This document shows, piece after piece, positions 36,588 to 60,954 of a stretch of 64,000 nt of DNA (the first letter of the stretch is position 1; the number at the start of each line of letters is the position of its first letter). The notes beneath the pieces are model-generated. The model did not search any database. It worked only from the letters and a program-made list of their open reading frames with translations, and was not told the origin of the DNA. The stretch is from an uncultured Nitrososphaeria archaeon (GTDB lineage Archaea; Thermoproteota; Nitrososphaeria; Geothermarchaeales; JDFR-13), in assembly GCA_964437705.1 (NCBI GenBank), contig CAYTHX010000002.1:16916-80915 (forward strand), given 5' to 3'. Position numbers and translations under genes: made by a program.

Positions 36588-38162
36588 CTCCCTCCTCATC
36601 ATATCACGTAGGTATATTTCCTTCAACTCATTAATAGTAGTTACATCTTTGGGATCTTTATCCAGCCTAAACCTAGTTACTCTTGCAAATCTAAGGGCAT
36701 AGCCACTTTTATACTTTGGGCTTTTTTGAACTTCATTAAAGGCTACTTCAACTACAATTTCTGGTTTGACCCATATTCTATATCCTTCATCGGCAATTTT
36801 TAGTTCTAGTAGTTTTCTAGTCATCCACTCAAATTCCTCGTCAGTTAAACCTTTGAATGTTTTTCCTACAATCAAAAATTCACTATTTTCTGGATCATAA
36901 ACTGCTAGGTAGTAATCGCTCAGCCAATTCCTTCTTCTCCCATGTCCCCACTCAGCACCAACAACGACGACATCGATAGTCTCTACTTCTTTAACTTTAA
37001 TCCAATTTGCGCCTCTTACACCCATAACATATGGTGCATCAAGCTTTTTCACCATCACACCTTCATGTCCAGCCCTGATAGCTCTCTCATAGAAATCTTT
37101 AGCAACACTTATATCGTCTGTAACTATTCTCTCAGCTAATAAACTGCTAGGAACTATAGATGTTAGGTATTCATAACGCTTATAATATGGTTCATTTACC
37201 AGCAACTTACCATTTAAATATAAGATGTCAAATAAGTAAAGCTTAATAGGGATTTTTTTAACTATAATTTCGAAGTCCTTAATTCTTTTAAATCTTTTCA
37301 TAAGCTCTTGGAAAGGCCGTGGATTTCCTTTTTCATCAATAGCGATAACCTCGCCTTCTAAGATTACATCACGTACCTTAAGAGTTTTCTTTATGACATC
37401 AGTAACCTCAGGCAAGTTTTCGGTTACATCTGTAAGCCTCCTTGAAAACACCTTAACTTCTCCACTCGCATAATGTATCTGTACCCTAACTCCATCATAT
37501 TTAACTTCTACCGCAGCTCTACCTCCAGCTAACTGCATAGCTTCTTCTATCGTATCTGCTGAAGTTGCAAGCATAGGTCTAATCGGATTAAAAAGCTTAG
37601 GTTTTACATTATCCAGATTAAGCTCTTTTTTACTTAACTTTTCAGCTAACTCACCTATATCACCTATTAGCAAATACGCTTTCCTCAATTTTTCAATATC
37701 TACCTTAGCTACGTCGGCTAACGCCTGTAGAACCAAGCCGACTTCCGCTCCTATCCTCATCTCTCCTGATAGTGATCTAATTAAAAATTCCCTCTCTATG
37801 TCGCTCATTCTACTTAAGAGTGAGGACAGTATATCGACTCTTTTCCTTTGAACATCAGCGCCACTAATTGACGCTACTCTATTAAGTTCTCTGTAAACTT
37901 CTTTTATGGTTGGAGGACCAAGTGGAATTAATGTTTGTATTTTACTTGATATAGCCTTTTTAATTGTAGAGTATCCTATATATAGTGCTTTATTTTCTGA
38001 TTCTGGCAGTACTTTACCTGTTAGTAGAAGAACGAATGGCTTCCACTCATCTGGATTAATCTTTCTAAGAAAATTTGATATTATTCTTCTTTTTTCAAGT
38101 GTAGATGACGTTTCTTCTAGAGACCTACATAACTTAGCAAACTCTAGAAAACTAGTCTCCAA
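36579..38162 (-). CDS. lig: ATP-dependent DNA ligase
   Basis: Adenylation motif KYDGVRVQIH and motifs III-VI (EGEVIA; LYLFDILY; EGVMVK). 527 aa. Confidence 0.9.
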   Translation of the reverse strand: METSFLEFAKLCRSLEETSSTLEKRRIISNFLRKINPDEWKPFVLLLTGKVLPESENKALYIGYSTIKKAISSKIQTLIPLGPPTIKEVYRELNRVASISGADVQRKRVDILSSLLSRMSDIEREFLIRSLSGEMRIGAEVGLVLQALADVAKVDIEKLRKAYLLIGDIGELAEKLSKKELNLDNVKPKLFNPIRPMLATSADTIEEAMQLAGGRAAVEVKYDGVRVQIHYASGEVKVFSRRLTDVTENLPEVTDVIKKTLKVRDVILEGEVIAIDEKGNPRPFQELMKRFKRIKDFEIIVKKIPIKLYLFDILYLNGKLLVNEPYYKRYEYLTSIVPSSLLAERIVTDDISVAKDFYERAIRAGHEGVMVKKLDAPYVMGVRGANWIKVKEVETIDVVVVGAEWGHGRRRNWLSDYYLAVYDPENSEFLIVGKTFKGLTDEEFEWMTRKLLELKIADEGYRIWVKPEIVVEVAFNEVQKSPKYKSGYALRFARVTRFRLDKDPKDVTTINELKEIYLRDMMRRELS

Positions 38163-39351
38163 GTTGATACACCTCAGATGCTAACTCATTAAACATTTTT
38201 ATAAAACTGTCTTCTGAGCTTGATGGTATCGTTGCAGCACCTAAAGTTTGATATCCGTATCCTAAGCCTCCAACTTGATATGCTACCGCCTCAGCTAAAG
38301 CTACGACTGACTGGGCATTATTGGAAAGGATGAGAGTTTCTAGGTATCTAGGTACACGAATTGCAACATTTGTCCATGTTTCACGTAAATTGCCTAAACC
38401 AGGTATTTTTTTCTGTCGCCTCATTAGCCCAAGAATGTACTTATTTTTAAATACTAACCTACCTTGAAATCTCACATAACTTGTAAAGCTATCAAAAACC
38501 CTGGTTCCCATAGAATTAAATATACCTGTATCCATAAACCATTGAACTCTTTTTAATTGGAATAATCCCTCTTTTTCTAGGGCCTCAATCCCTCTCTTAT
38601 ATGCATCTTGTCTTACTATCTTATACCTACTTGCGTCCTCTTTAATCATTCTAAAATCTTTAAATATTAAGGCTTCAACAACTCTTAAAGGACCATCTGC
38701 GTAATAGCCTACTGAGGATGCGAGAGTTATATCCTTATATAGACTTGTAATTTCCCTACTATACCCTTTAACATGTATATGAAATGACATCTTATCCCCT
38801 CGAATTGCTCTTCTCGCTACACCAAGCAACTCTGCCTCAGCAAAGGCACGCCAGTTAAGACCTTTAAATTCCCCCTTGACCTCTCCAATACCAATTAGTG
38901 ATATCCAAGCTACATCTTTATCTTTGCCGAATCGATGCTTATAAATAAAATAAAGAATTGTTGATGTTGTTGCGTAATCTCCACTTAGCTTAAACTTTGT
39001 CGGATTTATATAAGGGATATTATGTGGGACTTCAATTACCTCCTCATGATGATCAATTATATATACACGTCTTCTCATTTTCTCCGGAATCATCACATGT
39101 ATGGGGCCGCCAAGATCCAGAAACATGTACTGATTGTAGTCCTCTCTAAATATCATCTCTAAGGCTTCAGGAAAAACTTTATCAAGACAAACGAGAGTAT
39201 ATTCATTATTTAATTTCTCAGCTAGATATGAAGCTATAGCTGCTGCGGCTACTCCATCAGCATCATCACTAAAAATTATCATTAGTGATGAATCTTTTTC
39301 GAGCTTTTCAGATACTGTATTAATTGCTGTAGTGAGTGATGATTCAGACAC
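38152..39351 (-). CDS. DHH-family phosphoesterase (RecJ/Cdc45-like)
   Basis: DHH motifs (DDADGVAAA; IDHHEE). The gene overlaps the ligase start and follows polB3 on the same strand. Confidence 0.6.
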   Translation of the reverse strand: MSESSLTTAINTVSEKLEKDSSLMIIFSDDADGVAAAAIASYLAEKLNNEYTLVCLDKVFPEALEMIFREDYNQYMFLDLGGPIHVMIPEKMRRRVYIIDHHEEVIEVPHNIPYINPTKFKLSGDYATTSTILYFIYKHRFGKDKDVAWISLIGIGEVKGEFKGLNWRAFAEAELLGVARRAIRGDKMSFHIHVKGYSREITSLYKDITLASSVGYYADGPLRVVEALIFKDFRMIKEDASRYKIVRQDAYKRGIEALEKEGLFQLKRVQWFMDTGIFNSMGTRVFDSFTSYVRFQGRLVFKNKYILGLMRRQKKIPGLGNLRETWTNVAIRVPRYLETLILSNNAQSVVALAEAVAYQVGGLGYGYQTLGAATIPSSSEDSFIKMFNELASEVYQLGD

Positions 39352-39374
39352 AACTATCCCCTGAAATCTTTAGC

Positions 39375-41687
39375 TTAAAAGAGAAATCTATCCATGCTGA
39401 AGTGAAGACCAGAGGCGATTGACTCTAAGTCACTTTTTGATATCCCCATCGGTTCTAATACCCTAGCAGATACTGGAATTACCTGCCTATATATGTAGTA
39501 ATCCCAGTCTATATCCTCTTTCTTCGCCATTGTATAATGTATTGCTCTCTTGTATAGTGGTCCAGAACCCTTTAAGATTACATATCCTATGAACATTCCC
39601 TTCTTGATCTTCCAGCCTTTTAATGCCAACTCTTCAGCTACCGCTAGGTGAGGAGACATAGCTTTATACTCATCTAGACGCTTAGTTATCTGCTCCCATA
39701 TTACAAGCTCATCAATAGGAACTTCACCACGATCTAGCTTCCTAACTCTTTCCCTAAAGTAATCTAAAATCTTATCCTTAGATGCTCCTGTTAAAACCAG
39801 TTTAATCAGATTATACTGAGTTTCCTTAGCATAATTACACCAATCTCTTCTAACATACTCTAAACCAACTACATCTATCTTATCGTCTATAGTTAAGCCT
39901 GCATATCTTTTTTTGGCCTCTGTAAACAATAGAACTTTATATATTTTGTCGATTTTAGCTTCTAAACCTAATTCTTTACTTATCCATGTAAGTAAGGCTT
40001 CAACCTTCTCCTTATCATAGTTTACAAATAGGCTATCGGTATCACCGTAAAGAATATGAAGACCTAATTCCTCAGCTTTTCTCTTACTACTACTTATTGT
40101 TTCTCTCCCTAGGTATGTAACTAACTGAGCTCCCTCCCAGCTGTAGTATCGTGCATTAATCCACCCCATATAACCATACATTGCATTAGCAAGAATCTTT
40201 AACACTCTTTGATGAGCATCTAAAATTCTATATGGAGCAGAGCCCTCTGGAAACTCCTTCATTTTACTTCTGACTTTGTTCCTCTCATCGACTAATCTCT
40301 TTATAATTTCCGGAAATAATCCTTTAATGCTCTGCTTTACTCCGACACCAATTTCCTCAAAGTATTTTACATCATCTTTTTTCTCATATACTATAGTATC
40401 TGGTGAGATGTTATACTTCATTATTAGTGTTGGATACATTGACTTGAAGTCTATAACACATACATTTCTATGAATACCGACTTTAGGCGGTAGTACAAGG
40501 CCTCCTAAGTATGTTCCCTTACCTTTACCCTTAACCTTAATTATAAGCTCTCCCCTCTTAACAGCATTTTTCATAATATAGTTTTCTACTTGAAAACCTG
40601 CAGATGATGATAGTACATAGTCAGCAGGCATTCCAGTAATTGCGGATAAACTAAATATTTCTTCCTTTAATAGCATAAATGCGTCATATATGGTTTTAGC
40701 TCTCCATAGACTATACTTTAGTAGCTCATCCCTGTTATTTTTCCACGCATCATAATATAGTAGTCTATCAAATACTCTACCTGGTTGTGATATACCAAGG
40801 AAATATGCTAGTTCTTCTAGCGTCTTTCTCTGCAGAGAGGGGTTGTTATTGACATAATCCTTTAGGTCAATATTTAATCTTCCAGGGATCGAGAAGTGTC
40901 CATAAAGACTTTGATGTGGTTCGTCACCTCTATATCCGATTTTGAGCGGAATATTCAACACTTTTGACCTCTCAAGTAGGTATGGCCACACAATACTATT
41001 GCCTTCAAATGAAACAATTACATGAGGTGAGTAACTTTGGACATCATTAACTAAAGATTTTAAAATCTCTTTATCATCATTCCTCAGAACATATTGCTTA
41101 TAACCATTAGCAGTATATAAAGTTACTGCTAAAATCGGATCACTCTCTGGATCTGCTTCTCCAATTGGAGAAGCAGTAACTAGGTCGATTGATAAAATTT
41201 TTAATGGTGGATACTCTACTTCTTCAGATAATAATTGAATATCCCGCAGAATATTTATATTACTCTCCACATCATACGTAACTTTGTACCAGCTTGAGGG
41301 AGAAACATCTCTTATTAATAAATACTTATTTGAAAATCTTATATCATCTTCATAAAAAGTTACATCTCGGTAATTAGCTTCAATTATGCGAACAACGTTT
41401 TCTAAATCCTTTGGGGGACCACGAATTAGTAATACTTCTTTATCTCTGCCAACAAGTTTTCTCTTAACTATATCCGCGGTTAAACCTGCAGATTCCCTAA
41501 GTTTAACAAGATCATAGATTTTTCTAAGTGTATTTATATCTGCATCTACATATACCCAATCTCTATGGCCAGGATCATATATATTAATGACAATGCCATT
41601 CTCATCTACCATCCATAAGCAAATTACATCCTTACCGCCTAATTCCTCCGTAGTTAAGTCTAAAAACCATAACTTTTTAGACAACAT
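39375..41687 (-). CDS. dpo3: family-B DNA polymerase (PolB3/Dpo3-like)
   Basis: Exo motifs and pol motifs A-C, including YGDTDS. The size (770 aa) matches Sulfolobus Dpo3. Confidence 0.85.
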   Translation of the reverse strand: MLSKKLWFLDLTTEELGGKDVICLWMVDENGIVINIYDPGHRDWVYVDADINTLRKIYDLVKLRESAGLTADIVKRKLVGRDKEVLLIRGPPKDLENVVRIIEANYRDVTFYEDDIRFSNKYLLIRDVSPSSWYKVTYDVESNINILRDIQLLSEEVEYPPLKILSIDLVTASPIGEADPESDPILAVTLYTANGYKQYVLRNDDKEILKSLVNDVQSYSPHVIVSFEGNSIVWPYLLERSKVLNIPLKIGYRGDEPHQSLYGHFSIPGRLNIDLKDYVNNNPSLQRKTLEELAYFLGISQPGRVFDRLLYYDAWKNNRDELLKYSLWRAKTIYDAFMLLKEEIFSLSAITGMPADYVLSSSAGFQVENYIMKNAVKRGELIIKVKGKGKGTYLGGLVLPPKVGIHRNVCVIDFKSMYPTLIMKYNISPDTIVYEKKDDVKYFEEIGVGVKQSIKGLFPEIIKRLVDERNKVRSKMKEFPEGSAPYRILDAHQRVLKILANAMYGYMGWINARYYSWEGAQLVTYLGRETISSSKRKAEELGLHILYGDTDSLFVNYDKEKVEALLTWISKELGLEAKIDKIYKVLLFTEAKKRYAGLTIDDKIDVVGLEYVRRDWCNYAKETQYNLIKLVLTGASKDKILDYFRERVRKLDRGEVPIDELVIWEQITKRLDEYKAMSPHLAVAEELALKGWKIKKGMFIGYVILKGSGPLYKRAIHYTMAKKEDIDWDYYIYRQVIPVSARVLEPMGISKSDLESIASGLHFSMDRFLF

Positions 41688-46622: not shown

Positions 46623-47270
46623 TTGAGAGTTATAGTAGATATTCATGAACCTAAAGAGATTATAGAGAAATTAGAGAGACTCCTAGTGCCAACTATGGTT
46701 AAAAGTATCACACCAGGCGACTATATCATTGGAGACGTCGGAATTGAAAGGAAAAGCATATATGATTTCCATCAGTCAATTATTAAACGTAGAATTTTTG
46801 AACAGATCGCGAGACTTAATGAGGCGTATGGTAGAAGCATACTCATTATCGAGGGAGACTTAAATCAACTCTACAAGGAGAGAGATTATAGACCGTATAT
46901 TGGAGCTATCGTAGCAATTACTGTCGATTTAAAAACACCAATTATATTCACTAGAAATAAAGATGAGACAGCTTATGCATTGAGAAGTATATGGAGTAGA
47001 ATGGTAAAGAAAGGGGAAATTACAACCATTAGGTATAAACCTAAAATTCTTGATGAGAATGAGAGAAAGCTATTTATTTTGCAGGGTTTTCCTGATGTAG
47101 GGCCGAAATTAGCTGAGAGAATATTACTAAGATTTAGAACACTTAAAAACTTTTTCAACGCCTCAATTGATCAGTTAATGAATGTAGAAGGAATTGGAGA
47201 GAAGAAAGCAGAGGAAATCTACAAATTAATTAACTCACCTTATAAGCCTAAAGGAATAAAATTACTTTAA
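46623..47270 (+). CDS. xpf: short archaeal XPF (ERCC4 nuclease + HhH2)
   Basis: ERCC4 motif GDYIIGDVGIERKSIYD and a C-terminal tandem helix-hairpin-helix (GFPDVGPKLAERIL...VEGIGEKKAEEI). Confidence 0.75.
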   Translation: MRVIVDIHEPKEIIEKLERLLVPTMVKSITPGDYIIGDVGIERKSIYDFHQSIIKRRIFEQIARLNEAYGRSILIIEGDLNQLYKERDYRPYIGAIVAITVDLKTPIIFTRNKDETAYALRSIWSRMVKKGEITTIRYKPKILDENERKLFILQGFPDVGPKLAERILLRFRTLKNFFNASIDQLMNVEGIGEKKAEEIYKLINSPYKPKGIKLL

Positions 47271-47391: not shown

Positions 47392-48063
47392 TTAAGTTAT
47401 TAGTGGCAAGATTTCCTTGTATATAAATTGAATAAACTGCTCTTCATCGATATTTGAGAACATGGCTAATACACAATTTCTAGTTATACCAACAATATAT
47501 CCATATTTTGTAAATTCGAATACTACGTACCAGATTTTTCCGTGCTCAAGGTACATTGTATAGAGACTAGTATTTGTTAATGCATCACCATATAAGCTTA
47601 ACTTCTTGATATTAGGGATATCTACGTTATCAAAGAATATTACTTTGGAAGCCTCAGGATTAGTTTCATGCAATGCCTTTAAAACTTCATGTGTAATTTG
47701 CGCTTCTACAACCTCTCCAATTTTAATGAATAACGCTTCGCTAACTTTATTGGCAATGTAATTTGCTAATAACTTCTTCTCCAAGATAATTAAGTAAATA
47801 ATATCCTTGTATCTTTTGAAAAATAATTTTGACTCCCTAGTAACTGGTACTTTCTTTTCTTCGCCCCTATAATTAACTACAATAACTTTGTCCATATAGA
47901 ATTTACATCTTAATTCATCACCCATAAACTTGAAGTCTCCAAAATTTGACTTTAACGTTAAATCATCAGCTTCTTCTTCCTCTTCAAAATTTTTTAATTT
48001 CTCAGCTATCAGATCAAAATCCATGTCTTGTTTAAGTTTAAAAATCTTTGCTGCTAGTACCAA
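47392..48063 (-). CDS. hypothetical protein
   Basis: 223 aa with an acidic stretch (EEEEEADD). No motif. Confidence 0.35.
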   Translation of the reverse strand: MVLAAKIFKLKQDMDFDLIAEKLKNFEEEEEADDLTLKSNFGDFKFMGDELRCKFYMDKVIVVNYRGEEKKVPVTRESKLFFKRYKDIIYLIILEKKLLANYIANKVSEALFIKIGEVVEAQITHEVLKALHETNPEASKVIFFDNVDIPNIKKLSLYGDALTNTSLYTMYLEHGKIWYVVFEFTKYGYIVGITRNCVLAMFSNIDEEQFIQFIYKEILPLIT

Positions 48064-51909: not shown

Positions 51910-52209
51910 ATGGTGATTGGTAGGGTGGGATTTAGAGAGGGAGATAATGTAAGGATAAGACATTTAATCCTTGACGTGTTAAAACCACATTATCCGGGTA
52001 TTGTTGAGTTGAGCAAAGCGTTAGCAGGCGTAGATGGTGTAGATAGAGTAACCATAGATATTGTTGAGATGGATCAAGATACTGAGAGCGTTAAAATCGA
52101 AATTGAGGGTAATAATATTAATGTTGAGAAACTCATAAAAAGAATTAAGGAAATGGGAGCTTCTGTCCATAGTATTGACTCAGTTACAACCGAAATATCA
52201 AAGGTTTAA
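51910..52209 (+). CDS. small conserved archaeal hypothetical protein (DUF211-like)
   Basis: 99 aa. Its stop overlaps the Lhr start (ATGA). Confidence 0.35.
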   Translation: MVIGRVGFREGDNVRIRHLILDVLKPHYPGIVELSKALAGVDGVDRVTIDIVEMDQDTESVKIEIEGNNINVEKLIKRIKEMGASVHSIDSVTTEISKV

Positions 52210-55052
52210 TGATGACAACAAGTGCCGGGGGTACTCTACATCCCTATATTAAGAAACTTATAGATGAAATTGGATTTAAAACCCTTACTGAGCCTCAAAA
52301 ACGTGCAATTCCTTTGATACTCTCTGGAAAAAATGTACTAATAATTGCGCCTACTGGTAGCGGAAAGACCGAGGCAGCTTTAATACCTATTTTTAGTCAG
52401 TTGATAAGTGGTAATTATAAACCGATTGCTGTGGTCTACATTACACCTCTAAGAGCATTGAATCGAGATTTAATTGACCGTATAAATTGGTGGGCTTCTA
52501 GACTAGATATTGAAGTAGCAGTAAGACATGGAGATACAGTTAAAAAGGAAAGAAGAAGACATGCACTTAAACCGCCCGAAATTATGATCACTACCCCAGA
52601 GACATTCGCCATGCTACTTAATACGAAAATTATGAGTAAGCATCTATCTAATGTAAAGTGGGTTATAGTTGATGAGGTACATGAGTTAGTGGATAGTAAG
52701 AGAGGAGCTCAGTTATCGATTGCTTTAGAAAAGCTTAGGGAGATGACTAATGATTTTCAGATAATTGGCCTGTCAGCAACTGTAGGTTCTCCGGAAATTG
52801 TAGGCAAGTTTCTAGTTGGTGCTAATAGAGAAATGGAAATTATAAATATTGATGTTACAAAGAGAATGAGATTTCAAATATTGTACCCTACTCCAACTGA
52901 TGAGGATTATAGGTTAGCTGATGAACTATATACATATCCAGCTGTCGCTGCTAGAATACGAGCAATTATAAATCTAGTTAATAAACATAGAGCAACATTG
53001 ATATTTACAAATACTAGACCCATGGCTGAGATACTATCAAGTAGAATTTTACTGTTAGATGAGAATTTTCCTGTAAGTATTCATCATGGTAGCTTATCAG
53101 CAAATGTTCGAATGAGAATAGAGCGTATGCTTAAGGATAGTAGAATTAAGGGGGTTGTATGTACATCATCACTAGAATTAGGGATCGACATTGGAAATAT
53201 AGATCTAGTTATTCAATACAACTCCCCTAGACAAGTAACTAGACTCATTCAGAGAGCTGGTAGAAGTGGCCACTGGATAGAAAGAGAGTCTAAGGGCGTA
53301 ATTATCGTTCAAGATTCAGATGATGCTCTTGAGTCAATTGCTATAGTTGAGTATGCTAAAAGAAATATTCTGGAAAAACCGATAGTTCCGAGTAAACCTT
53401 TAGATGTACTGTCGCATGAAATTGCTGGATATCTTATAGCTAACAGAGTAGTAAGTGCCAAGAAAATTTATGATGTAATACAGAGGAGCTATGTTTATAG
53501 AGACCTCACTTATGATGAGTATAAGAGACTACTCGATTTTCTAAGTAATTTGGTCGACCGATATATAATTTATGATGAGTCTTCTGATCTGATATATCGT
53601 GGGAGAATAAGGAGATTATTTGAGTATTATTTTGAAAACTTGTCGATGATTCCTGAGATTAAGCAATATTTAGTAGTTAATGAAGAGGATGGATCACCTA
53701 TAGGGATACTTGATGGAGAGTTTGTAGCGGAGTACGGTGAACCAGGATTTAAATTTATTATGACTGGTAGACCATGGCGTATTGTACATGTTTATCGTGA
53801 TAGAGTTTATGTAAAGCCAGATGATGATCCGATAGGGGCGATTCCTTACTGGGTCGGGGAAGAAATTCCGGTGCCTTATCACATTGCACAAAGAGTTGGT
53901 GAGATAAAGCGTAAACTAGAAGAGTTAGTAAGGAATAGCGTGGATAATCCTGTCCGGGTACTTTCTAGCGAGTTAAATGTTACTCAAGATCTACTGCGTA
54001 AAGCGTTAGAACCTTACGTAGAGCAGCTAAATGCTTCTCTACCGATTCCAACAGATCGCCGGATAGTTATGGAGAAGTTTCAGGATAAGCTGATTATTCA
54101 TGTTCATGGTGGTACATTAATAAATAGAGCACTGGCCATCCTTATATCACAGTTAATTTTTGAGGAGTTTGGTGAATCAGTGTATTCTTCAAGCGATCCT
54201 TATAAGATTATAATATCTACTCAGACTGTTCAGCCTAATGACGTTGAAAGAATGCTTCTAGAGGTTACTTTGGATAATGCTGAGAAGCTCATAAGAGCTG
54301 GGATTGAAAATACGCCCTACTTTAGATGGAGATTAATACATGTTGCTCGTAAAATGGGGCTAATATCTAAGGACGTGACTTTAGATCCCACAAAAACTGA
54401 GCAACTAGTATTATCATTAAGGGGTACCCCAGCATATGATGAAGCATATAAGGAGAGTATAGAGAGAGATAGGGATATTAGGGGAGCATTAAATATTCTA
54501 AGGAGAATAATTAACGGTGAGCTTACTATCGAGGTTATACCGAATAAACTTAGCCCAACACCTCTTATGGAGCACTTCCTAAAGTATTCTAGTATAAAGT
54601 TAGAGCCAACTAGAGTTGATAAGTTAAAGATGCTAAAGATACTGAGTATACGAGTAAGGCTCTTAAATGAAGTTGTTACCCTAGCATGTTTATCATGCCT
54701 GAATTATATTGATGAAATGAGAGTTAGGGATCTTCCTGATGATATATTATGTCCTAATTGTGGATCGAGAAAAATTGGCGTCTCAAAGGAGCTTTTGGAT
54801 GATGTAATGAGAGTTATATCAATAGCTAAAGTAGGTGGAAGGAATGTAGAGGGAGATAGTATATGGAAGGAGCTCAATCAAACTTCAAAATTAATTGAAA
54901 AGTATGGTAAAGCGGCTGCTATAGTTATTTCTTCGGGATTACCAATAAATAAGGCTAAGGATATACTATCTAGGGAGGGCAGAGTTTCTGGTAGATTATT
55001 TAGGCTTATTCTTGAGGCCGAGAAGAAAAGTCTTCTCGAGAAGTACCAATAA
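52209..55052 (+). CDS. lhr: Lhr-like large ATP-dependent helicase (SF2, DEVH box)
   Basis: APTGSGKTEAAL, ITPLRALNRD, DEVHEL and QRAGRSGH motifs. The C-terminal region has a 4-Cys zinc site (CLSC...CPNC). 947 aa. Confidence 0.8.
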   Translation: MMTTSAGGTLHPYIKKLIDEIGFKTLTEPQKRAIPLILSGKNVLIIAPTGSGKTEAALIPIFSQLISGNYKPIAVVYITPLRALNRDLIDRINWWASRLDIEVAVRHGDTVKKERRRHALKPPEIMITTPETFAMLLNTKIMSKHLSNVKWVIVDEVHELVDSKRGAQLSIALEKLREMTNDFQIIGLSATVGSPEIVGKFLVGANREMEIINIDVTKRMRFQILYPTPTDEDYRLADELYTYPAVAARIRAIINLVNKHRATLIFTNTRPMAEILSSRILLLDENFPVSIHHGSLSANVRMRIERMLKDSRIKGVVCTSSLELGIDIGNIDLVIQYNSPRQVTRLIQRAGRSGHWIERESKGVIIVQDSDDALESIAIVEYAKRNILEKPIVPSKPLDVLSHEIAGYLIANRVVSAKKIYDVIQRSYVYRDLTYDEYKRLLDFLSNLVDRYIIYDESSDLIYRGRIRRLFEYYFENLSMIPEIKQYLVVNEEDGSPIGILDGEFVAEYGEPGFKFIMTGRPWRIVHVYRDRVYVKPDDDPIGAIPYWVGEEIPVPYHIAQRVGEIKRKLEELVRNSVDNPVRVLSSELNVTQDLLRKALEPYVEQLNASLPIPTDRRIVMEKFQDKLIIHVHGGTLINRALAILISQLIFEEFGESVYSSSDPYKIIISTQTVQPNDVERMLLEVTLDNAEKLIRAGIENTPYFRWRLIHVARKMGLISKDVTLDPTKTEQLVLSLRGTPAYDEAYKESIERDRDIRGALNILRRIINGELTIEVIPNKLSPTPLMEHFLKYSSIKLEPTRVDKLKMLKILSIRVRLLNEVVTLACLSCLNYIDEMRVRDLPDDILCPNCGSRKIGVSKELLDDVMRVISIAKVGGRNVEGDSIWKELNQTSKLIEKYGKAAAIVISSGLPINKAKDILSREGRVSGRLFRLILEAEKKSLLEKYQ

Positions 55053-55551
55053 CTCTCTCTGCTCCAATAAATAGCCTAACAAGCCTCTCTAAATTAAATT
55101 CAATCTTACTTCTTAAGCCGATTTTTAGTGAATCATCTTCCCTCTCAAGATAACCTAGTCTAATAAATTTCTCTATAGCTCTCTCAACTCTCCATCTAGC
55201 AATTTTATTAGAAATTATATCAATAAGATCTTTCTCTGCAGCTTTCCCACCTCTTGAGAGAATATAGCTTAGTGATACAGCTAAAACCGCCATCTCATCT
55301 ATACGCCATCCATAAGTTTTAATTTCACGTGTTAACTTTTCATCCTTAACTACAACAGCGTAATGCTTTGTATCACCTTCCTCAATACATTTAATTTGTA
55401 AACCTAGTGGCTCAAGATCCTCCTCTAAAACCTTAAGTATCTCCTCATAATGCTCACCCAAATATTTTCTCAGCTCCCACTCCTTAGCCCCAGGATATTT
55501 ATGTCTCTTAAAGAGAAGTAATGCTGCAGCCTTCTTTAGCTTATCCTTCAA
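55006..55551 (-). CDS. ScpB-like (kite) winged-helix protein
   Basis: N-terminal AALLLF, like the ScpB EALLF motif. Two predicted winged-helix halves. Overlaps the scpA-like stop. Confidence 0.5.
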   Translation of the reverse strand: MKDKLKKAAALLLFKRHKYPGAKEWELRKYLGEHYEEILKVLEEDLEPLGLQIKCIEEGDTKHYAVVVKDEKLTREIKTYGWRIDEMAVLAVSLSYILSRGGKAAEKDLIDIISNKIARWRVERAIEKFIRLGYLEREDDSLKIGLRSKIEFNLERLVRLFIGAERVIGTSREDFSSRPQE

Positions 55552-56278
55552 CTTTACTCCTCCTCACCCAAGTAGCTACTGATTGTAAGTTCTCGACCAC
55601 AATATTTTCAACAGGCTTTACATAAATTTTATCCTCAAAACGCCTATACATCATTACAACCCTTCCCTCAGTTATTAAAAAACTAAGCAGATACGCTCTT
55701 TCAACTGGGTTACCCTTACTATTAATAAAGTTGTAGTAATCAACCCACTTACCCTTAGAGGTAAAAATCAATTCCTGATATAACTCATCGAGTTTCTCAT
55801 GAATATTTAATGGAATAATGAAATCTCTTGTTAACTCAGCCTTAGGTAGTTCATAAACTATATGTTTAATTTTTCTTTCATCAATTGGTTTAAGCTTGTT
55901 AAAATAATCTAGAGCATACTCTATCAAAATATTATCAGATACCTCTATCTCGACGACTGGAGTCCAAACTGACCTCAGAATTTCGGCGATTGCTTCGATC
56001 GATAACTGTTGAGTTCTTAGCTCAACTAATATTGGCTCTATATACAACCCTAGGCCTCTTGATTTTAATAACTCATATTGGCAAGATAAGATTATCGTTA
56101 AGCCGTATAAAGCTCTTATATCTTTAATTATGTCGTCTAAACTCTTTAGCTTCTTAAATAAGCTACTTATCGAATCTAAATACTTACTTATATCCACATC
56201 TAAAGGGTCAACTTTACCTTCCAATACCTTAATAGATAAATCGATTAACCTCTCATAAAGCTGATTATTCTTCAACAT
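55541..56278 (-). CDS. ScpA-like kleisin
   Basis: N-terminal VDPLDVDISKYL, like the ScpA PLDLLL...IDI motif, with a C-terminal winged-helix-like end. Overlaps the SMC-like stop. Confidence 0.55.
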   Translation of the reverse strand: MLKNNQLYERLIDLSIKVLEGKVDPLDVDISKYLDSISSLFKKLKSLDDIIKDIRALYGLTIILSCQYELLKSRGLGLYIEPILVELRTQQLSIEAIAEILRSVWTPVVEIEVSDNILIEYALDYFNKLKPIDERKIKHIVYELPKAELTRDFIIPLNIHEKLDELYQELIFTSKGKWVDYYNFINSKGNPVERAYLLSFLITEGRVVMMYRRFEDKIYVKPVENIVVENLQSVATWVRRSKVEG

Positions 56279-58079
56279 CCACAGCCTCCTCTAGTCTATA
56301 AGCCGTTGAGTACTCCCCAGTTTTTTGAACGACTATAATATTAACATCCTCGACATTTCCAGATATGTATCCAGGCGTTATTACTATATATTGTTCATCT
56401 CTATCCTTCATTATGTTAATTAGGTAATTCATAATTACTTCTCTATTTCTTGGGTCCATATGGACATCGAATTCATCGACGGCTCTTAATGGTGATTTTA
56501 TGAAACTTTGTAGGGCTATTAGAAAGAGCATTATCGCTGTTGTTCTTTCTCCACCACTTTGAGTGTATGCATCCAAGACTTTTTCTTCGCCGCCTCTGAA
56601 ACCAACCACTAACTCTAAGCCAGCATTATCTATGTCGTCTATGTTTATTATCCGGGCATATCCCCTAGCTCCAATTCCAGTTAGCAATTTTGAGTATTCT
56701 TCTGAAACCTTTGATATAATGGATATTATGTTTTTACGCCATATTTCTATTCTTTTCTCTAGTTCCCTCTCAGCCTTAATTCTATTTGCTTTAGCTTCTT
56801 CAACCTTTCTTTTTAGGTCTGTATATAAGCCACGGTAGTACTTATACGTCTCCTCAATGCTATCATCAACATCCTTATAAACCTTAAGTAAAGCATCTAC
56901 TTCCCTAATTTCAGATATAATTTCAGTAGGCTTCCTCTTAGTTTGTATTTCCGCCCCAGATGCCTTCGCGTCTGCCAAAGATTTCGTAAGCTCTCTATCT
57001 AATCGTTTTAGCTCAATCTCTAATCTCCTAATTTCAGCTTCTAACTGTGTAGATTTATAGTTTAAGACACCTTCACTAATCTTACACTGAACATACTCCT
57101 TATATTTACCCTTAAGGACATCAATTGTTTTTTCAAGAGACCTTCTAGTTCTTACCAGGTGAGACTCATCTAGAACCTCCCTACCCAATTCATATGCTAA
57201 ATGCGTAGCCTCCTCCAATAAGCTGCGCATTCTGATATATAAGTTATTTATTTCCTCCTCAATATTCCTAGCTTTAACTTTATAACTATCACGCTCTCTA
57301 ATAACATCCTCAAGCTCCTCTTTTAATGAATATAGTTGACTATTTAATTTATCATACTCATCCTTTAACCTAAAATATTTACTCCAATATAGTTCCCTTA
57401 CTAAGTACTCCCTTCTAGCAATTAATTCTCTTTTTCTCAATAATCTCTCATACTCTCTCTTATATTTAGATAACATGCCCTCAGTTTCATCAAGTAACTT
57501 GCTAATCTCCTCTTCGTCCTTTAGCGCTTTCTTCAACTGTTCCCTAGACTTAATAATTTTCTCTCTATACTCTTTTAATCCTACAGCCTCCTCAAACATT
57601 TCCAGTTTTAACTTAGGGTCAACTAAACCAAATGCTTCAACCATATTTTGATGCATTATAATTAGTGGATTATCAGGATTAAGCCCAACATTTCGGAGCA
57701 TAACTTGAACTTCAGCTTTTGTTATACTTTTATGATTAATTTGGAAAATATACTGACCGTCCCTACGCAAAATTCTAGTTAAAACTATTTCATCTTTATT
57801 TATATATGGAATAGGCCTTTTCCCATCCCTAATCGAATTATCAATTCTAATTGTAACCCTACCGTACTCTTCACCCCATCTTATTAATTCACCTAACTTT
57901 CTAGATCTCTCAGTATATGTTTGGCCAAGAGCCACTGATAATGCAAGTAATATACTCGATTTTCCAGCGCCATTAGGTCCAATTATTAAGTTTAGACCTG
58001 GCGAAAATGGTATCCTAGCATATTTATACGACATAAAATTTTCGATTATTAACTCCTTTATGAAACACTTCTTAGTCAT
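56265..58079 (-). CDS. SMC-like ABC ATPase without hinge (short coiled coil)
   Basis: Walker A GPNGAGKSS, about 350 aa of heptad-rich coiled coil, signature QSGGERT, Walker B AVDEFDVHMD, and an H-loop. There is no CxxC zinc hook. Confidence 0.7.
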   Translation of the reverse strand: MTKKCFIKELIIENFMSYKYARIPFSPGLNLIIGPNGAGKSSILLALSVALGQTYTERSRKLGELIRWGEEYGRVTIRIDNSIRDGKRPIPYINKDEIVLTRILRRDGQYIFQINHKSITKAEVQVMLRNVGLNPDNPLIIMHQNMVEAFGLVDPKLKLEMFEEAVGLKEYREKIIKSREQLKKALKDEEEISKLLDETEGMLSKYKREYERLLRKRELIARREYLVRELYWSKYFRLKDEYDKLNSQLYSLKEELEDVIRERDSYKVKARNIEEEINNLYIRMRSLLEEATHLAYELGREVLDESHLVRTRRSLEKTIDVLKGKYKEYVQCKISEGVLNYKSTQLEAEIRRLEIELKRLDRELTKSLADAKASGAEIQTKRKPTEIISEIREVDALLKVYKDVDDSIEETYKYYRGLYTDLKRKVEEAKANRIKAERELEKRIEIWRKNIISIISKVSEEYSKLLTGIGARGYARIINIDDIDNAGLELVVGFRGGEEKVLDAYTQSGGERTTAIMLFLIALQSFIKSPLRAVDEFDVHMDPRNREVIMNYLINIMKDRDEQYIVITPGYISGNVEDVNIIVVQKTGEYSTAYRLEEAVDVEE

Positions 58080-58175
58080 TTTACTACCAAGTTCTCTAGA
58101 TACTATAATTATTATTTAAGTTATTTGTATTCGGTTCATAATCTAGTAGTCTACAACTCAGTTAATTATTATCAG

Positions 58176-59069
58176 TTACGTAGTTAGTTCAGGCAAATTG
58201 CTCGCTTCACTTTCATATAACTCTTTTCTATGTGCTTCCAATAGAAGAGGGCTTAATCCCATAAATTCTGCTGCAGTACCAACCCAAATCCTCCTTACCT
58301 TAGCAGCTTCATACACATCGATAACCCAACTTAACCAATTTGCATCGCGAAGTAAATGATGGTCAATTATAAAAACCCTTAGGTTTGTTAAATCATTTAA
58401 TGATGTCAAGTGTGCAAGAGATTTATTTAACTCTTCCTCGGGATACCTGCTTCCCAGTAGATAGGTCATAGGTCCATCTATATATATTACATTAGGATTC
58501 ATCTCATACATAAACTCGACTTGTTCTTTTAAAGGTGGACCTTCAACATCACTTGTAAACAAGAAAGAATGTTTACCATCGTAAACATATACTTCTAAAA
58601 CATATCCTAATTTTGTATTAATCCCGTGTGGGACAGGCTTAGAGAACTTTATAACAGTATCTTCAAATTTAAACTCTTTACTATCTGCGATCTCAATTCT
58701 ATCTGCATAATTCTCTATTTGTTTGATAAAGTATAATCCCCTTCTACTCTGATTATAATTTATATTTTCCATTGGATCTTTCAATAACACAACTTTGTCT
58801 TTATATATAACGTCGGTATACCGCTTAGGATTATGATGATCATAATGATAATGAGTAACAATAATAACATCACTTCTCTCCGCGTAGTATACAATACGTT
58901 TCCAGTCCTCCTCCAACTTCTCTAGCTCTACTGGGTGGGGAGGTAAACCAAATCTTCTAGGTGCTAATGCCACACCTGGATCAATAAGGATATTAACATC
59001 TTTAGTTTCTACGTAGGTAGCCATACTACGCGTTCCAAATGATTCTCCAGTAATAAAGGTTAGCCTCAA
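58176..59069 (-). CDS. metallo-beta-lactamase-fold hydrolase
   Basis: HYHYDHH (HxHxDH) motif. The gene lies 96 nt upstream of, and co-directional with, the SMC-like gene. Confidence 0.7.
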   Translation of the reverse strand: MRLTFITGESFGTRSMATYVETKDVNILIDPGVALAPRRFGLPPHPVELEKLEEDWKRIVYYAERSDVIIVTHYHYDHHNPKRYTDVIYKDKVVLLKDPMENINYNQSRRGLYFIKQIENYADRIEIADSKEFKFEDTVIKFSKPVPHGINTKLGYVLEVYVYDGKHSFLFTSDVEGPPLKEQVEFMYEMNPNVIYIDGPMTYLLGSRYPEEELNKSLAHLTSLNDLTNLRVFIIDHHLLRDANWLSWVIDVYEAAKVRRIWVGTAAEFMGLSPLLLEAHRKELYESEASNLPELTT

Positions 59070-59134
59070 TACTAATAATACAAATTACTAACTGAAGAAA
59101 TATTTATTTGTTCCTGCCAATTCACACCCACTGA

Positions 59135-59689
59135 TCATGGGATCTCATACTTCCTTAAGCTATTTTTATCTATTGTAATAAAATGACCCTCCGAGATATA
59201 GAGAATAGGCCTATAGTTTTCAACTTCCCAATGTGTAGTATACAGATTATCATCTTTAACATAAGCATCTACGACATCACCTATAAATAAGTCATGATCA
59301 CCAGTTTTAACCACATTTATAACTTTACACTCAACTACACCCAGCGCTTCCTTAACAACTACTATATTTAATTTTCTAGCCCTAGTTGGAGTTAACTTAA
59401 CAACTTTAAATTTATCATCATAATCCTTTCCAGATAAAGTACCAGCTAAATATACATTTTCAACGTACTTAAAGTCCATTATATTTATAGCAAACTCTCT
59501 ACTAGACTTTACAATACTATACGTAAACCTCTCTGGAGAAATAGCTACAGCGACCCTTGAAGGTACATACGATACAGGCATCACCCAAGCAGCAGTCATA
59601 ACAGCATTCTTACCATTAAAACTAGATGTTACTAAAACAGTTAATCCTGGCTGTATAAGTCTAATCTGATCAATCGTTATTGACTTCAT
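59135..59689 (-). CDS. flavin-reductase-like FMN-binding split-barrel protein
   Basis: 184 aa with a weak resemblance to the flavin reductase-like domain. Confidence 0.35.
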   Translation of the reverse strand: MKSITIDQIRLIQPGLTVLVTSSFNGKNAVMTAAWVMPVSYVPSRVAVAISPERFTYSIVKSSREFAINIMDFKYVENVYLAGTLSGKDYDDKFKVVKLTPTRARKLNIVVVKEALGVVECKVINVVKTGDHDLFIGDVVDAYVKDDNLYTTHWEVENYRPILYISEGHFITIDKNSLRKYEIP

Positions 59690-60375: not shown

Positions 60376-60954
60376 ATGAGAAAAGCTCGAACAATTGAGG
60401 AATATCAGAAAGCACTAGAACTCCTCTATAAGTATAAATATAGTATACGGAAAGTGGCAAGAGAATTAAATATCCCGAGAACAACAATTCAACGTTGGCT
60501 CAAAGGTTCCAAACCAATACTATCATGGACACCAAAGCCAACACCAGAATTAGCATATGTAATTGGTGTATTGATGGGAGATGGACATTTACATCTACGT
60601 AAGAAAAACCACTATAGTATTGAACTAGAAGTTAAAGATTTAGCGTTTGCCTGTGAATTTAGTAGAACATTAGCAAAAGTACTCAATAAGCCATTTAGAA
60701 AACCATATTGGAGAAAAGATAGACATAGATGGACAGTATACTACTACTCGAAAGCATTCTACATATGGTTTAAGGAGCAAACCCTGAAAACATTAAAGAA
60801 GTATATAGAGCACGATAAAGAAACTGTTGGAGCATTCCTAAGAGGAATCTATGACTCAGAAGGAAGTAACTGGAGATGCAAAAGGATATCGGTATACAAT
60901 ACTAGTTTAATGCTTCTAAGGTATATCCAGTACCTATTAAATAAGGTATTTTAA
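60376..60954 (+). CDS. HTH + LAGLIDADG homing-endonuclease-like protein (I-DmoI-like), apparently truncated by a frameshift
   Basis: N-terminal HTH (RKVARELNIPRTTIQRWLKG), a first LAGLIDADG motif (LAYVIGVLMGDGHL) and a second (FLRGIYDSEGS). Confidence 0.65.
   Translation: MRKARTIEEYQKALELLYKYKYSIRKVARELNIPRTTIQRWLKGSKPILSWTPKPTPELAYVIGVLMGDGHLHLRKKNHYSIELEVKDLAFACEFSRTLAKVLNKPFRKPYWRKDRHRWTVYYYSKAFYIWFKEQTLKTLKKYIEHDKETVGAFLRGIYDSEGSNWRCKRISVYNTSLMLLRYIQYLLNKVF

What the first reader, a model, noticed from the sequence alone, without database searches (positions are those of the whole stretch)
55006..59069. Compact hinge-less SMC-like ATPase + ScpA-like kleisin + ScpB-like kite operon, preceded by an MBL-fold hydrolase
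The sequence shows three overlapping minus-strand genes. The first is a 604-aa SMC-head ABC ATPase with Walker A GPNGAGKSS, signature SGGERT, Walker B DEFDVHMD, about 350 aa of coiled coil, and neither a hinge nor a zinc hook. It is followed by a 245-aa protein with a ScpA-type N-terminal motif (VDPLDVDISKYL) and a 181-aa tandem winged-helix protein with a ScpB-like AALLLF start. An MBL-fold hydrolase gene (HYHYDHH) sits 96 nt upstream on the same strand. Sulfolobales lack canonical SMC, so a miniature SMC-kleisin-kite module is notable. Its architecture resembles MukBEF/MksBEF or Wadjet (JetABC), with the MBL hydrolase as a possible nuclease partner. It could be either a chromosome-organisation complex or a plasmid/virus-restriction system.
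Basis: partly seen in the sequence, partly recalled or inferred. Interest (0 to 1): 0.75.

Follow-up and report, generated by a model that had tools for sequence, protein, structure and literature searches.

The report
Hinge-less archaeal SMC5/6-like gene trio
Three overlapping genes encode a short, hinge-less SMC ATPase with a kleisin and a kite partner, and they belong to the already described archaeal relatives of the eukaryotic SMC5/6 DNA-repair complex; it is a real and tidy example of a known but untested family, not a Sulfolobus novelty or a defence system.

Summary
Three overlapping minus-strand genes encode a 604-aa SMC-type ATPase, a 245-aa kleisin and a 181-aa tandem winged-helix kite, with an MBL-fold gene 96 nt upstream.

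The ATPase has intact motifs and about 300 aa of coiled coil. Its apex is a 6-residue turn, with no hinge and no CxxC hook.

It is not ScpAB-, MukBEF- or Wadjet-like. The ATPase scores 212 bits against published "SMC5/6-related archaeal SMC" sequences, 56 against canonical archaeal SMC and 34 against ClsN/ASRP. Its best solved relatives are Smc5 and Smc6. The kleisin matches Nse4. The kite matches Nse3/MAGE and Nse1.

The SMC-kleisin-kite order is kept in 19 of 19 loci from Bathyarchaeia, Hadarchaeota, Methanomethylicia, Thermofilales and others. The MBL gene is linked only in the window's own clade (4 of 19).

The closest named genome is Geothermarchaeales JdFR-13, not Sulfolobales, and that genome is reported to carry a separate canonical SMC set as well.

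This kind of operon is already described (Yoshinaga & Inagaki 2021; van Hooff et al. preprint). I did not find three things described in the papers I searched: the family-wide loss of the hinge, a recurrent convergent Lhr helicase, and a recurrent unknown 225-aa neighbour.

Verdict: new member of a known kind, moderate interest.

The parts
56265..58079 (-). 604-aa hinge-less SMC ATPase of the archaeal 'SMC5/6-related' group. Head: 1-166 and 469-600. Antiparallel coiled coil: 169-468. Apex turn: 300-305. Joint-like breaks: 375-383 and 401-406.
   Evidence: Pfam SMC_N 7.9e-34. Profile against solved structures: Smc5 2.2e-59, Smc6 2.4e-53, Pyrococcus Smc 8e-47, Rad50 1e-11. 212 bits against published '56rooted' sequences, 56 against canonical and 34 against ASRP. 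AF2 model with pLDDT 86 and no hinge. No CxxC.
55541..56278 (-). 245-aa kleisin, Nse4-like. It has an N-terminal kleisin motif (VDPLDVDISKYL) and a C-terminal winged helix.
   Evidence: Profile A2 against solved structures: Nse4 0.0044, EID3 0.011, ScpA C-domain 0.045. Pfam Nse4_C in 12 of 19 family members (best 3.4e-7), SMC_ScpA in none. Precomputed Nse4_C on the orthologs in L035 and L039. It always follows the SMC gene directly.
55006..55551 (-). 181-aa kite (tandem winged helix), Nse1/Nse3 (MAGE)-like, with no RING finger.
58080..58175 (-). 96-nt AT-rich spacer between the MBL and SMC genes, with a TATA-like stretch (TTAAATAATAATTATA) about 27-42 nt before the SMC ATG. It is a possible promoter of the trio.
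   Evidence: Read directly from the sequence. This is inference only; no transcript data.
58176..59069 (-). MBL-fold hydrolase of the PRK04286 family. It is a clade-specific upstream neighbour, not part of the conserved module.
   Evidence: NCBIfam NF003287 scores 311 bits against a cut-off of 286. Pfam Lactamase_B. Linked to the trio in 4 of 4 loci of the window's clade (gaps -8 to +96 nt) and in 0 of 15 more distant loci. No related solved structure by sequence.
59135..59689 (-). Flavin-reductase-like protein, which travels with the MBL gene in the window's clade only.
   Evidence: Pfam Flavin_Reduct 4.1e-30. Synteny.
52209..55052 (+). Lhr-type DNA helicase (947 aa), convergent with the kite gene. 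The two 3' ends overlap by 47 nt. It is a recurrent neighbour of the trio.
   Evidence: Pfam DEAD, Helicase_C, WH_Lhr and DEAD_assoc. The same tail-to-tail arrangement occurs in the window's clade (4 of 4) and in L009, L011 and L035. In L039 the helicase lies 3.3 kb downstream.
47392..48063 (-). 223-aa conserved protein of unknown function ('U225'), a recurrent neighbour of the trio and a candidate associated factor.
   Evidence: No Pfam, NCBIfam or solved-structure match. 41-52% identical across phyla. Found near the trio in 12 of 19 loci; in 6 of these it is immediately upstream and divergent. Small family of 124 representatives.

Best explanation
The three genes encode an archaeal SMC5/6-related complex.

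Shown: the composition. There is a short SMC ATPase, an Nse4-like kleisin and an Nse1/Nse3-like kite, encoded by one translationally coupled operon in the core chromosome.

Inferred: the assembly. By analogy with solved SMC-kleisin-kite complexes, two ATPase subunits would engage head to head on two ATP molecules. One kleisin would bridge the neck of one subunit and the cap of the other. A kite dimer would sit on the middle of the kleisin. Together they would form a head-proximal compartment that clamps DNA in an ATP-dependent way.

Shown: the arms are only about 20 nm long and end in a simple turn instead of a hinge.

Inferred: the complex therefore cannot form the large hinge-closed ring of canonical SMCs. 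Most likely it works as a compact DNA clamp or bridge in replication-associated repair, like the clamping state of Smc5/6, rather than as a long-range chromosome folder. The repeated linkage to an Lhr repair helicase fits this reading.

The MBL hydrolase is a lineage-specific neighbour, not a core component.
For: - Family placement: 212 bits against published SMC5/6-related archaeal SMCs, 56 against canonical and 34 against ASRP.
- The family profile hits Smc5 and Smc6 best.
- The kleisin matches Nse4.
- The kite matches Nse3/MAGE and Nse1 by sequence and by fold.
- Gene order SMC-kleisin-kite is kept in 19 of 19 loci across several phyla. This is the same order as the published examples.
- Gene overlaps and internal Shine-Dalgarno-like motifs are present.
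- All ATPase motifs are invariant in the family.
- The AF2 model shows head, neck, joint, a short coiled coil and a 6-residue apex.
- Smc5 residues ~446-650, which include the hinge, have no counterpart.
- The context is core chromosome: PolB, ligase, thermosome and Nuo genes.
- An Lhr helicase abuts the kite gene in 7 loci from at least 4 lineages.
- No match on plasmids, and only weak partial matches in phages.
Against: - The kleisin and kite assignments rest on weak individual E-values (0.004-0.02). Their strength comes from being consistent with each other.
- The kite model has only moderate confidence (pLDDT 67), and winged-helix folds are common.
- No multimer model, transcript data or biochemistry exists for any member. 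Stoichiometry, DNA clamping and a repair role are therefore inferred.
- How a hinge-less SMC dimerises is unknown.
- The Lhr linkage is seen in only 8 of 19 loci.
- Foldseek ranks a Pyrococcus Smc head above the Smc5/6 heads, so the ATPase fold alone does not separate the two SMC branches.
Confidence: 0.7

Rival explanations
1. It is a miniature version of the canonical prokaryotic condensin, Smc-ScpA-ScpB, and acts as the organism's main chromosome organiser.
For: - The kleisin N-terminus carries a ScpA-type motif.
- TIGR02169 SMC_prok_A is the best NCBIfam hit, at 3.5e-43.
- The best Foldseek hit is the Pyrococcus Smc head with joint.
- ScpA C-domains appear among the weak hits of the kleisin profile.
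Against: - The TIGR02169 score is 148 bits against a cut-off of 729.
- The score against canonical archaeal SMC heads is 56 bits, against 212 for the SMC5/6-related set.
- Pfam SMC_ScpA and SMC_ScpB match none of the 19 kleisins or 12 kites.
- There is no hinge.
- The related genome JdFR-13 is listed with a separate SMC, kleisin and ScpB-like kite set.
Confidence: 0.08
2. It is an SMC-based defence system (Wadjet/JetABCD-like or Lamassu-like). The upstream MBL-fold hydrolase would be the nuclease effector that destroys plasmids or viral DNA.
For: - The ATPase is short and hinge-less, as in Lamassu LmuB.
- PADLOC gives LmuB at 3.6e-20 for the ATPase and a faint LmuA hit (5.7e-4) for the MBL protein.
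- The MBL gene is tightly packed with the trio in the window's clade, and overlaps the SMC gene by 8 nt in L036.
Against: - The PADLOC hits are generic ABC-ATPase matches (71 bits for LmuB against 205 bits for Smc5).
- There is no JetA, JetB, JetC, JetD or LmuC match for any protein.
- The MBL gene is absent from 15 of 15 more distant loci.
- The MBL protein belongs to the NCBIfam PRK04286 family, for which no nuclease function is annotated.
- The locus lies in a conserved housekeeping block that stays collinear at 47-59% protein identity, unlike a defence island.
- The trio is not found on plasmids or phages.
Confidence: 0.05
3. It is a Rad50/SbcC/RecN-type or ClsN (coalescin)/ASRP-type SMC-like protein, and the two small genes are unrelated passengers.
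For: - Its length of about 600 aa is similar to RecN and the ASRPs.
- There are weak NCBIfam hits to ASRP (1.7e-19), Rad50 and RecN.
Against: - All of these hits are far below their cut-offs (ASRP 70 bits against 300).
- The ASRP head HMM gives 34 bits against 212 for the SMC5/6-related set.
- Rad50 scores 1e-11 against 2e-59 for Smc5.
- There is no CxxC zinc hook anywhere in the family.
- No Mre11 gene is nearby.
- The two small genes are strictly co-inherited with the ATPase in 19 of 19 loci.
Confidence: 0.02

Closest known systems
Archaeal 'SMC5/6-related' SMC complexes (Yoshinaga & Inagaki 2021, doi 10.1093/gbe/evab256; van Hooff et al. preprint, doi 10.1101/2024.01.07.573240)
   Same: - The ATPase head sequences belong to the same group.
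- The partners are the same: an Nse4-related kleisin and an Nse1/3-related kite.
- The gene order SMC-kleisin-kite is the same.
- The TACK-centred distribution is the same.
   Different: Nothing essential; this locus is a member. The searched texts of those papers do not mention that the ATPase is about 600 aa and lacks a hinge, nor the Lhr and U225 neighbours. For the related genome JdFR-13 their table lists the kleisin-kite pair but no SMC5/6-related SMC. The authors attribute such gaps to downsampling.
Eukaryotic Smc5/6 core (Smc5-Smc6-Nse4-Nse1-Nse3)
   Same: - These are the best solved relatives of all three proteins.
- The architecture is SMC-kleisin-kite.
- The conserved histidine of the H-loop is replaced by proline ('ITP'), as in yeast Smc5.
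   Different: - There is one SMC gene and one kite gene here, so homodimers are expected instead of heterodimers.
- There is no hinge, and the arms are about 20 nm instead of about 35 nm (the latter figure is from my own knowledge).
- The kite has no RING domain.
- No Nse2, Nse5 or Nse6 was recognised.
Prokaryotic Smc-ScpAB
   Same: The subunit logic is the same (SMC homodimer, one kleisin, kite dimer), as are the operon organisation and the kleisin N-terminal motif.
   Different: The ATPase has no hinge and is half the length. The head sequences are clearly separate (56 bits against 212). The ScpA and ScpB family models do not match.
ClsN (coalescin) and other archaea-specific SMC-related proteins (ASRP; Yoshinaga et al. 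2022, PMC9389158)
   Same: Both are short archaeal SMC-superfamily ATPases without a canonical hinge.
   Different: The ASRPs carry a zinc hook and have no conserved neighbours. This protein has no CxxC, scores 34 bits against ASRP heads, and always comes with a kleisin and a kite.
Lamassu LmuB and Wadjet JetABCD defence systems
   Same: They also use short or atypical SMC-like ATPases with accessory subunits.
   Different: Only generic ATPase similarity is found. No Jet or LmuC partner and no conserved effector is present. The locus is a stable core-chromosome one.

Membership tests
Archaeal SMC5/6-related SMC (Yoshinaga & Inagaki) | Head-domain sequence groups with the published SMC5/6-related archaeal set, not with canonical archaeal SMC or ASRP | tested here: met
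   HMMs were built from the published trimmed alignment. The window protein scores 212.1 bits against the '56rooted' set, 55.9 against canonical and 33.7 against ASRP. All nine '56rooted' sequences score above all eight canonical ones.
Archaeal SMC5/6-related SMC (Yoshinaga & Inagaki) | Closer to eukaryotic SMC5/SMC6 than to SMC1-4 | tested here: met
   Family profile against solved structures: Smc5 205 bits, Smc6 185, Smc2 139, Smc3 116-117, Smc4 110, Smc1 100. No tree was built here.
Archaeal SMC5/6-related complex (van Hooff et al.) | Adjacent Nse4-related kleisin | tested here: met
   Nse4 and EID3 are the top solved matches (0.0044, 0.011). Pfam Nse4_C matches 12 of 19 members, best 3.4e-7. 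Each hit is weak on its own, but they agree.
Archaeal SMC5/6-related complex (van Hooff et al.) | Adjacent Nse1/Nse3-related kite | tested here: met
Archaeal SMC5/6-related complex (van Hooff et al.) | Genes co-localised in the order SMC, kleisin, kite on one strand | tested here: met
   19 of 19 non-redundant loci, in the same order as the published examples.
Eukaryotic-type Smc5/6 holocomplex | Hinge domain that mediates SMC dimerisation | tested here: not met
   The AF2 model has a 6-residue apex turn. Smc5 residues ~446-650 have no counterpart.
Eukaryotic-type Smc5/6 holocomplex | Nse1 RING finger, Nse2 SUMO ligase and Nse5/6 subunits | tested here: not met
   The kite is 181 aa with a single Cys, so it has no RING. 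No Nse2-, Nse5- or Nse6-like family was found among the neighbours scanned. Distant homologs cannot be excluded.
Canonical Smc-ScpAB | Full-length SMC with hinge, scoring above the TIGR02169 or TIGR02168 cut-off | tested here: not met
   147.6 bits against a cut-off of 729.4, and 120.2 against 567. No hinge.
Canonical Smc-ScpAB | Partners match the ScpA (PF02616) and ScpB (PF04079) families | tested here: not met
   0 of 19 kleisins and 0 of 12 kites match at E <= 1.
ClsN / ASRP | Zinc-hook CxxC at the coiled-coil apex and a score above the NF045487 cut-off | tested here: not met
   No CxxC in 26 family members. 69.9 bits against a cut-off of 300.
Rad50/SbcC/RecN | Head sequence of the Rad50 or RecN type; zinc hook; Mre11/SbcD partner | tested here: not met
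   Rad50 1e-11 against Smc5 2e-59. RecN 43 bits against a cut-off of 408. No hook. No Mre11-like neighbour.
Wadjet (JetABCD) / MukBEF | JetA/MukF-type kleisin, JetB/MukE-type kite and JetD Toprim nuclease | tested here: not met
Lamassu | LmuB with a LmuC partner and a LmuA effector that is conserved with it | tested here: not met
   LmuB scores 71 bits, which is generic ABC-ATPase similarity. There is no LmuC. The MBL protein hits LmuA at only 17 bits and is absent from 15 of 15 more distant loci.

The most novel reading that the evidence does not exclude
The archaeal sister group of eukaryotic SMC5/6 is, as a whole family, a hinge-less mini-SMC with arms of about 20 nm. It would work as a compact DNA clamp together with two partners that I did not find described in the papers I searched: the convergently encoded Lhr helicase and the conserved 225-aa protein U225, which is divergently transcribed from the SMC gene in six lineages. 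That would define a four- or five-component replication-repair module. It would also mean either that the hinge was lost in this archaeal branch, or that the eukaryotic SMC5/6 hinge was acquired secondarily.
Probability: 0.25. Interest if true: 0.7.

Novelty: new member of a known kind. Interest (0 to 1): 0.5.

Why it matters
SMC5/6 is the least understood eukaryotic SMC complex. Its archaeal relatives are so far known only from phylogenies.

This locus is a clean, compact example: three overlapping genes, all ATPase motifs intact, and thermophile-type proteins. The ATPase of the whole family lacks the hinge, which is thought to be essential for SMC dimerisation and ring formation.

That makes the family a natural minimal system. 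It could be used to ask which SMC5/6 activities (DNA clamping, ATPase control by the kleisin and kite) need only the heads and proximal arms. It also bears on how SMC5/6 arose.

The recurrent Lhr helicase and the unknown 225-aa neighbour give testable leads to its cellular role.

It does not change the picture for Sulfolobales, and it is not a new defence system.

Tried and rejected
It returned only 15 true relatives and none from the window's own species. Taxon assignment therefore rests on protein look-ups and two papers.
- Rfam found nothing in the window, so there was no rRNA or tRNA for taxonomy.
- The supplement of Yoshinaga & Inagaki 2021 is not held. My accession numbers were not in the 2022 supplement. 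I used that paper's labelled alignment instead.
- A single-sequence search for the kleisin found only 8 homologs. The kleisin alignment was therefore built from the genes downstream of the SMC gene in related loci.
- The MBL protein has no solved relative by sequence.
- U225 has no Pfam, NCBIfam or solved-structure match.
- Literature searches for a hinge-less archaeal SMC5/6-like protein, or for an Lhr-SMC linkage, found nothing specific. The 'hinge-less SMC' of PMC12153180 is a marine actinobacterial group.
- ClsN was considered first because of the Sulfolobales premise. It was rejected because there is no zinc hook and the scores are low.
- Wadjet and Lamassu were considered and rejected.

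Full report
OBSERVATION

The ORF table confirms four co-directional minus-strand genes at the stated coordinates:
- MBL-fold protein, 58176-59069 (297 aa)
- SMC-like ATPase, 56265-58079 (604 aa)
- 245-aa protein, 55541-56278
- 181-aa protein, 55006-55551

The last three overlap by 14 and 11 nt. GGAGG motifs lie 6-7 nt before the two internal start codons, which is the usual signature of a translationally coupled archaeal operon. The MBL-to-SMC spacer is 96 nt and AT-rich, with a TATA-like stretch about 27-42 nt before the ATG. Reading that as a promoter is inference only.

THE ATPASE

Pfam gives SMC_N at 7.9e-34. NCBIfam hits to canonical SMC, ASRP, Rad50 and RecN are all far below their cut-offs.

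An alignment of 26 homologs shows an invariant Walker A, Q-loop (MHQN), signature motif (QSGGER) and Walker B/D-loop (DEFDVHMDP). It also shows 'ITP' at the position where SMCs usually carry the H-loop histidine. The same substitution is visible in yeast Smc5 in the alignment. That it is typical of SMC5/6 in general rests on my own memory.

The AlphaFold2 model (mean pLDDT 86) has these elements:
- a bipartite head
- one uninterrupted helix, residues 169-299 (about 19-20 nm)
- a 6-residue turn, residues 300-305
- a return arm with two short breaks (375-383 and 401-406) that resemble the SMC 'joint'

The best Foldseek match is the Pyrococcus Smc head with joint. There is no hinge domain, and none of the 26 family members has a CxxC. 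The family profile aligns to Smc5 residues 44-445 and 650-1056 and skips the hinge region.

More than 2,000 database proteins match. The 120 best are all 556-672 aa long. The short, hinge-less form is therefore a property of the family, not a truncation.

WHICH SMC BRANCH

The family profile scores as follows against solved structures:

| Target | E-value |
|---|---|
| Smc5 | 2.2e-59 |
| Smc6 | 2.4e-53 |
| Pyrococcus Smc head | 8e-47 |
| Smc2 | 1e-39 |
| Rad50 | 1e-11 |

For a direct membership test I took the labelled, trimmed head alignment published with Yoshinaga et al. 2022. I built HMMs from three of its groups: 8 canonical archaeal SMCs, 9 'SMC5/6-related' ('56rooted') sequences and 6 ASRP/ClsN-type sequences. 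The window protein scores 212.1, 55.9 and 33.7 bits against the '56rooted', canonical and ASRP groups respectively. Six other family members give the same ranking. The ATPase is thus a member of the 'SMC5/6-related archaeal SMC' group defined by Yoshinaga & Inagaki 2021. It is not ClsN, which carries a zinc hook.

THE TWO SMALL PROTEINS

On its own, the 245-aa protein hits only Pfam Nse4_C weakly (E = 0.15), and the 181-aa protein only MAGE (E = 0.0087).

I collected the genes immediately downstream of the ATPase gene in related loci and aligned them.

Kleisin profile:
- Its best solved matches are yeast Nse4 (0.0044) and human EID3 (0.011), followed by Pyrococcus ScpA C-domains (0.045-0.06).
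- Pfam Nse4_C matches 12 of 19 members (best 3.4e-7). SMC_ScpA matches none.
- The precomputed annotation of two orthologs also lists Nse4_C.

Kite profile:
- Its best match is a Xenopus Nse3/MAGE chain (0.023), with Nse1 further down.
- Pfam gives MAGE in 2 members, SMC_Nse1 in 1 and SMC_ScpB in none.
- The AF2 model (pLDDT 67) has two winged-helix units.

Each hit is weak by itself. Taken together, though, all three proteins independently point to the same eukaryotic complex.

CONSERVATION AND NEIGHBOURS

Nineteen non-redundant loci were compared: the window, JdFR-13 and two further members of the same clade, five from Bathyarchaeia, two from Methanomethylicia/Methanomethylicota, one from Thermofilales, two from Hadarchaeota, a 'Thaumarchaeota' MAG and four of unnamed or unclassified lineage.

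- Trio: the order SMC-kleisin-kite on one strand is kept in all 19, usually with overlapping or abutting genes.
- MBL and flavin-reductase genes: upstream only in the four loci of the window's clade. The MBL-SMC gap there ranges from +96 to -8 nt. They are absent from the other fifteen loci.
- Lhr-type helicase: convergent, overlapping or abutting the kite 3' end in the window's clade and in three distant loci (L009, L011, L035). In L039 it lies 3.3 kb downstream.
- U225 (window 47392-48063): an unannotated, well-conserved protein of about 225 aa. It lies near the trio in 12 of 19 loci, and in six of them it is immediately upstream and divergent. It has no family or structure match and belongs to a small family of 124 representatives.

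ORGANISM AND CONTEXT

The identical ATPase is found only on metagenome contigs. The nearest named genome is MTMA02000006.1 (GCA_002011075). Two papers call it Geothermarchaeota JdFR-13, and GTDB places it in Thermoproteota, Nitrososphaeria, Geothermarchaeales.

The window and JdFR-13 are collinear over the whole block. They share 58-62% identity for the ATPase, MBL and Lhr proteins, and nearly the same G+C content (0.346 and 0.351).

In van Hooff et al.'s table, no Sulfolobales representative has an Nse4- or Nse1/3-related gene. JdFR-13 has such a pair and, in addition, a separate SMC next to a kleisin and a ScpB-like kite. Their SMC set was downsampled, which explains why no SMC5/6-related SMC is listed for JdFR-13.

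The Sulfolobales premise is therefore unsupported, and this lineage probably has two SMC complexes.

The window itself is core chromosome, carrying family-B DNA polymerase, DNA ligase, thermosome, complex I subunits, XPF and glutamate dehydrogenase.

DEFENCE-SYSTEM RIVAL

PADLOC models give only generic ABC-ATPase matches for the ATPase (mad3, AriA, and LmuB at 71 bits). There is nothing for the kite, only a marginal hit to a candidate model (PDC-M11A, E 0.0048) for the kleisin, no Jet component, and a 17-bit LmuA hit for the MBL protein.

The kite has no match in 72,556 plasmids. The ATPase has only weak partial matches in phages.

Together with the fixed housekeeping context and the clade-restricted MBL linkage, this makes a Wadjet- or Lamassu-like role unlikely.

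MECHANISM

Shown:
- the composition of the module
- the integrity of the ATPase motifs
- the short hairpin arm without a hinge
- the operon structure
- the conservation across lineages

Inferred from solved SMC-kleisin-kite complexes:
- an SMC homodimer engaged through two ATP molecules
- one kleisin bridging the neck of one subunit and the cap of the other
- a kite dimer on the kleisin
- DNA held in the head-proximal compartment

Without a hinge, the complex cannot close a large ring. It should act as a compact clamp or bridge. The repeated Lhr linkage, and an EndoIII gene directly downstream in L039, suggest replication-associated repair, which parallels Smc5/6. How the two arms relate to each other is open. 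A conserved (S/A)Y-x-x-G-x-G apex motif in the closest relatives hints that the tip is functional.

KNOWN OR NEW

The kind is known. SMC5/6-related archaeal SMCs were defined in 2021. Operons of SMC, Nse4-like kleisin and Nse1/3-like kite in TACK, Asgard and some Euryarchaeota are described in the 2024-25 preprint. No member has been studied experimentally in any paper I found.

I did not find three things described: the family-wide absence of the hinge, the Lhr linkage and the U225 linkage. The 'hinge-less SMC' reported in 2025 is an unrelated marine actinobacterial group.

VERDICT

This is a new member of a known kind. Interest is moderate (0.5), mainly because the locus exposes a natural minimal, hinge-less SMC5/6-type complex and two candidate partners.

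Noticed in passing
window 47392-48063 (-); homologs in L007 5233-5907, L015 5155-5844, L032 6228-6932, L034 6135-6842, L037 2385-3065, L038 5139-5843 (all divergent and adjacent to the SMC gene): A conserved protein of about 225 aa with unknown function and no Pfam, NCBIfam or solved-structure match. It is 41-52% identical across phyla and carries the motifs FFDNVDIPN, YLEHGKIWY and GYIVGITRN. It lies near the SMC5/6-like trio in 12 of 19 loci, so it may be an unrecognised partner.
   Followed up: partly
window 52209-55052 (+), overlapping the kite gene 3' end at 55006-55052: An Lhr-type helicase is convergent with the trio, and the 3' ends overlap by 47 nt. The same tail-to-tail arrangement (a 9-nt gap to a 56-nt overlap) recurs in Thermofilales (L011), 'archaeon 13_2' (L009, which has two Lhr copies) and L035. 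I found no literature on this linkage.
   Followed up: partly
window 56265-58079, protein residues 567-569; alignment A1: The usual H-loop histidine of SMC and ABC ATPases is replaced by proline ('VITPG'). This is invariant in 26 family members and shared with yeast Smc5 in the alignment. It may be a synapomorphy of the SMC5/6 branch.
   Followed up: partly
protein residues 295-301 of the ATPase; alignment A1, columns ~305-313: The closest relatives (P0001-P0006) share an apex motif, (S/A)Y-x-x-G-x-G, at the coiled-coil tip. More distant members instead have 30-70 extra, poorly conserved residues there. The tip may be a contact site that replaces the hinge.
   Followed up: no
window 60376-60954 (+); L001 6928-7707; L029 282-1073: A free-standing HTH plus LAGLIDADG homing-endonuclease-like ORF sits just beyond the flavin-reductase gene. 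A LAGLIDADG ORF occupies a similar position in a relative at 47% identity (L029). No rRNA or tRNA gene is nearby (Rfam found nothing in the window).
   Followed up: no
window 58176-59689 (-); L026 6520-7952: The flavin-reductase-like and MBL-fold genes form a tight pair, overlapping by 4 nt in JdFR-13. This suggests that the two work together, perhaps as a redox pair, rather than the MBL protein being a nuclease for the SMC complex.
   Followed up: no
L039 9127-9795: In a Methanomethylicota relative, an endonuclease III (HhH-GPD) gene follows the kite gene directly on the same strand, and Lhr lies 3.3 kb further on. This is another DNA-repair neighbour of the trio.
   Followed up: no
window 36579-41687 and 46623-47270: Family-B DNA polymerase, ATP-dependent DNA ligase and a short crenarchaeal-type XPF (ERCC4 plus HhH2) lie within 8-18 kb of the trio. 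The region is rich in replication and repair genes.
   Followed up: no
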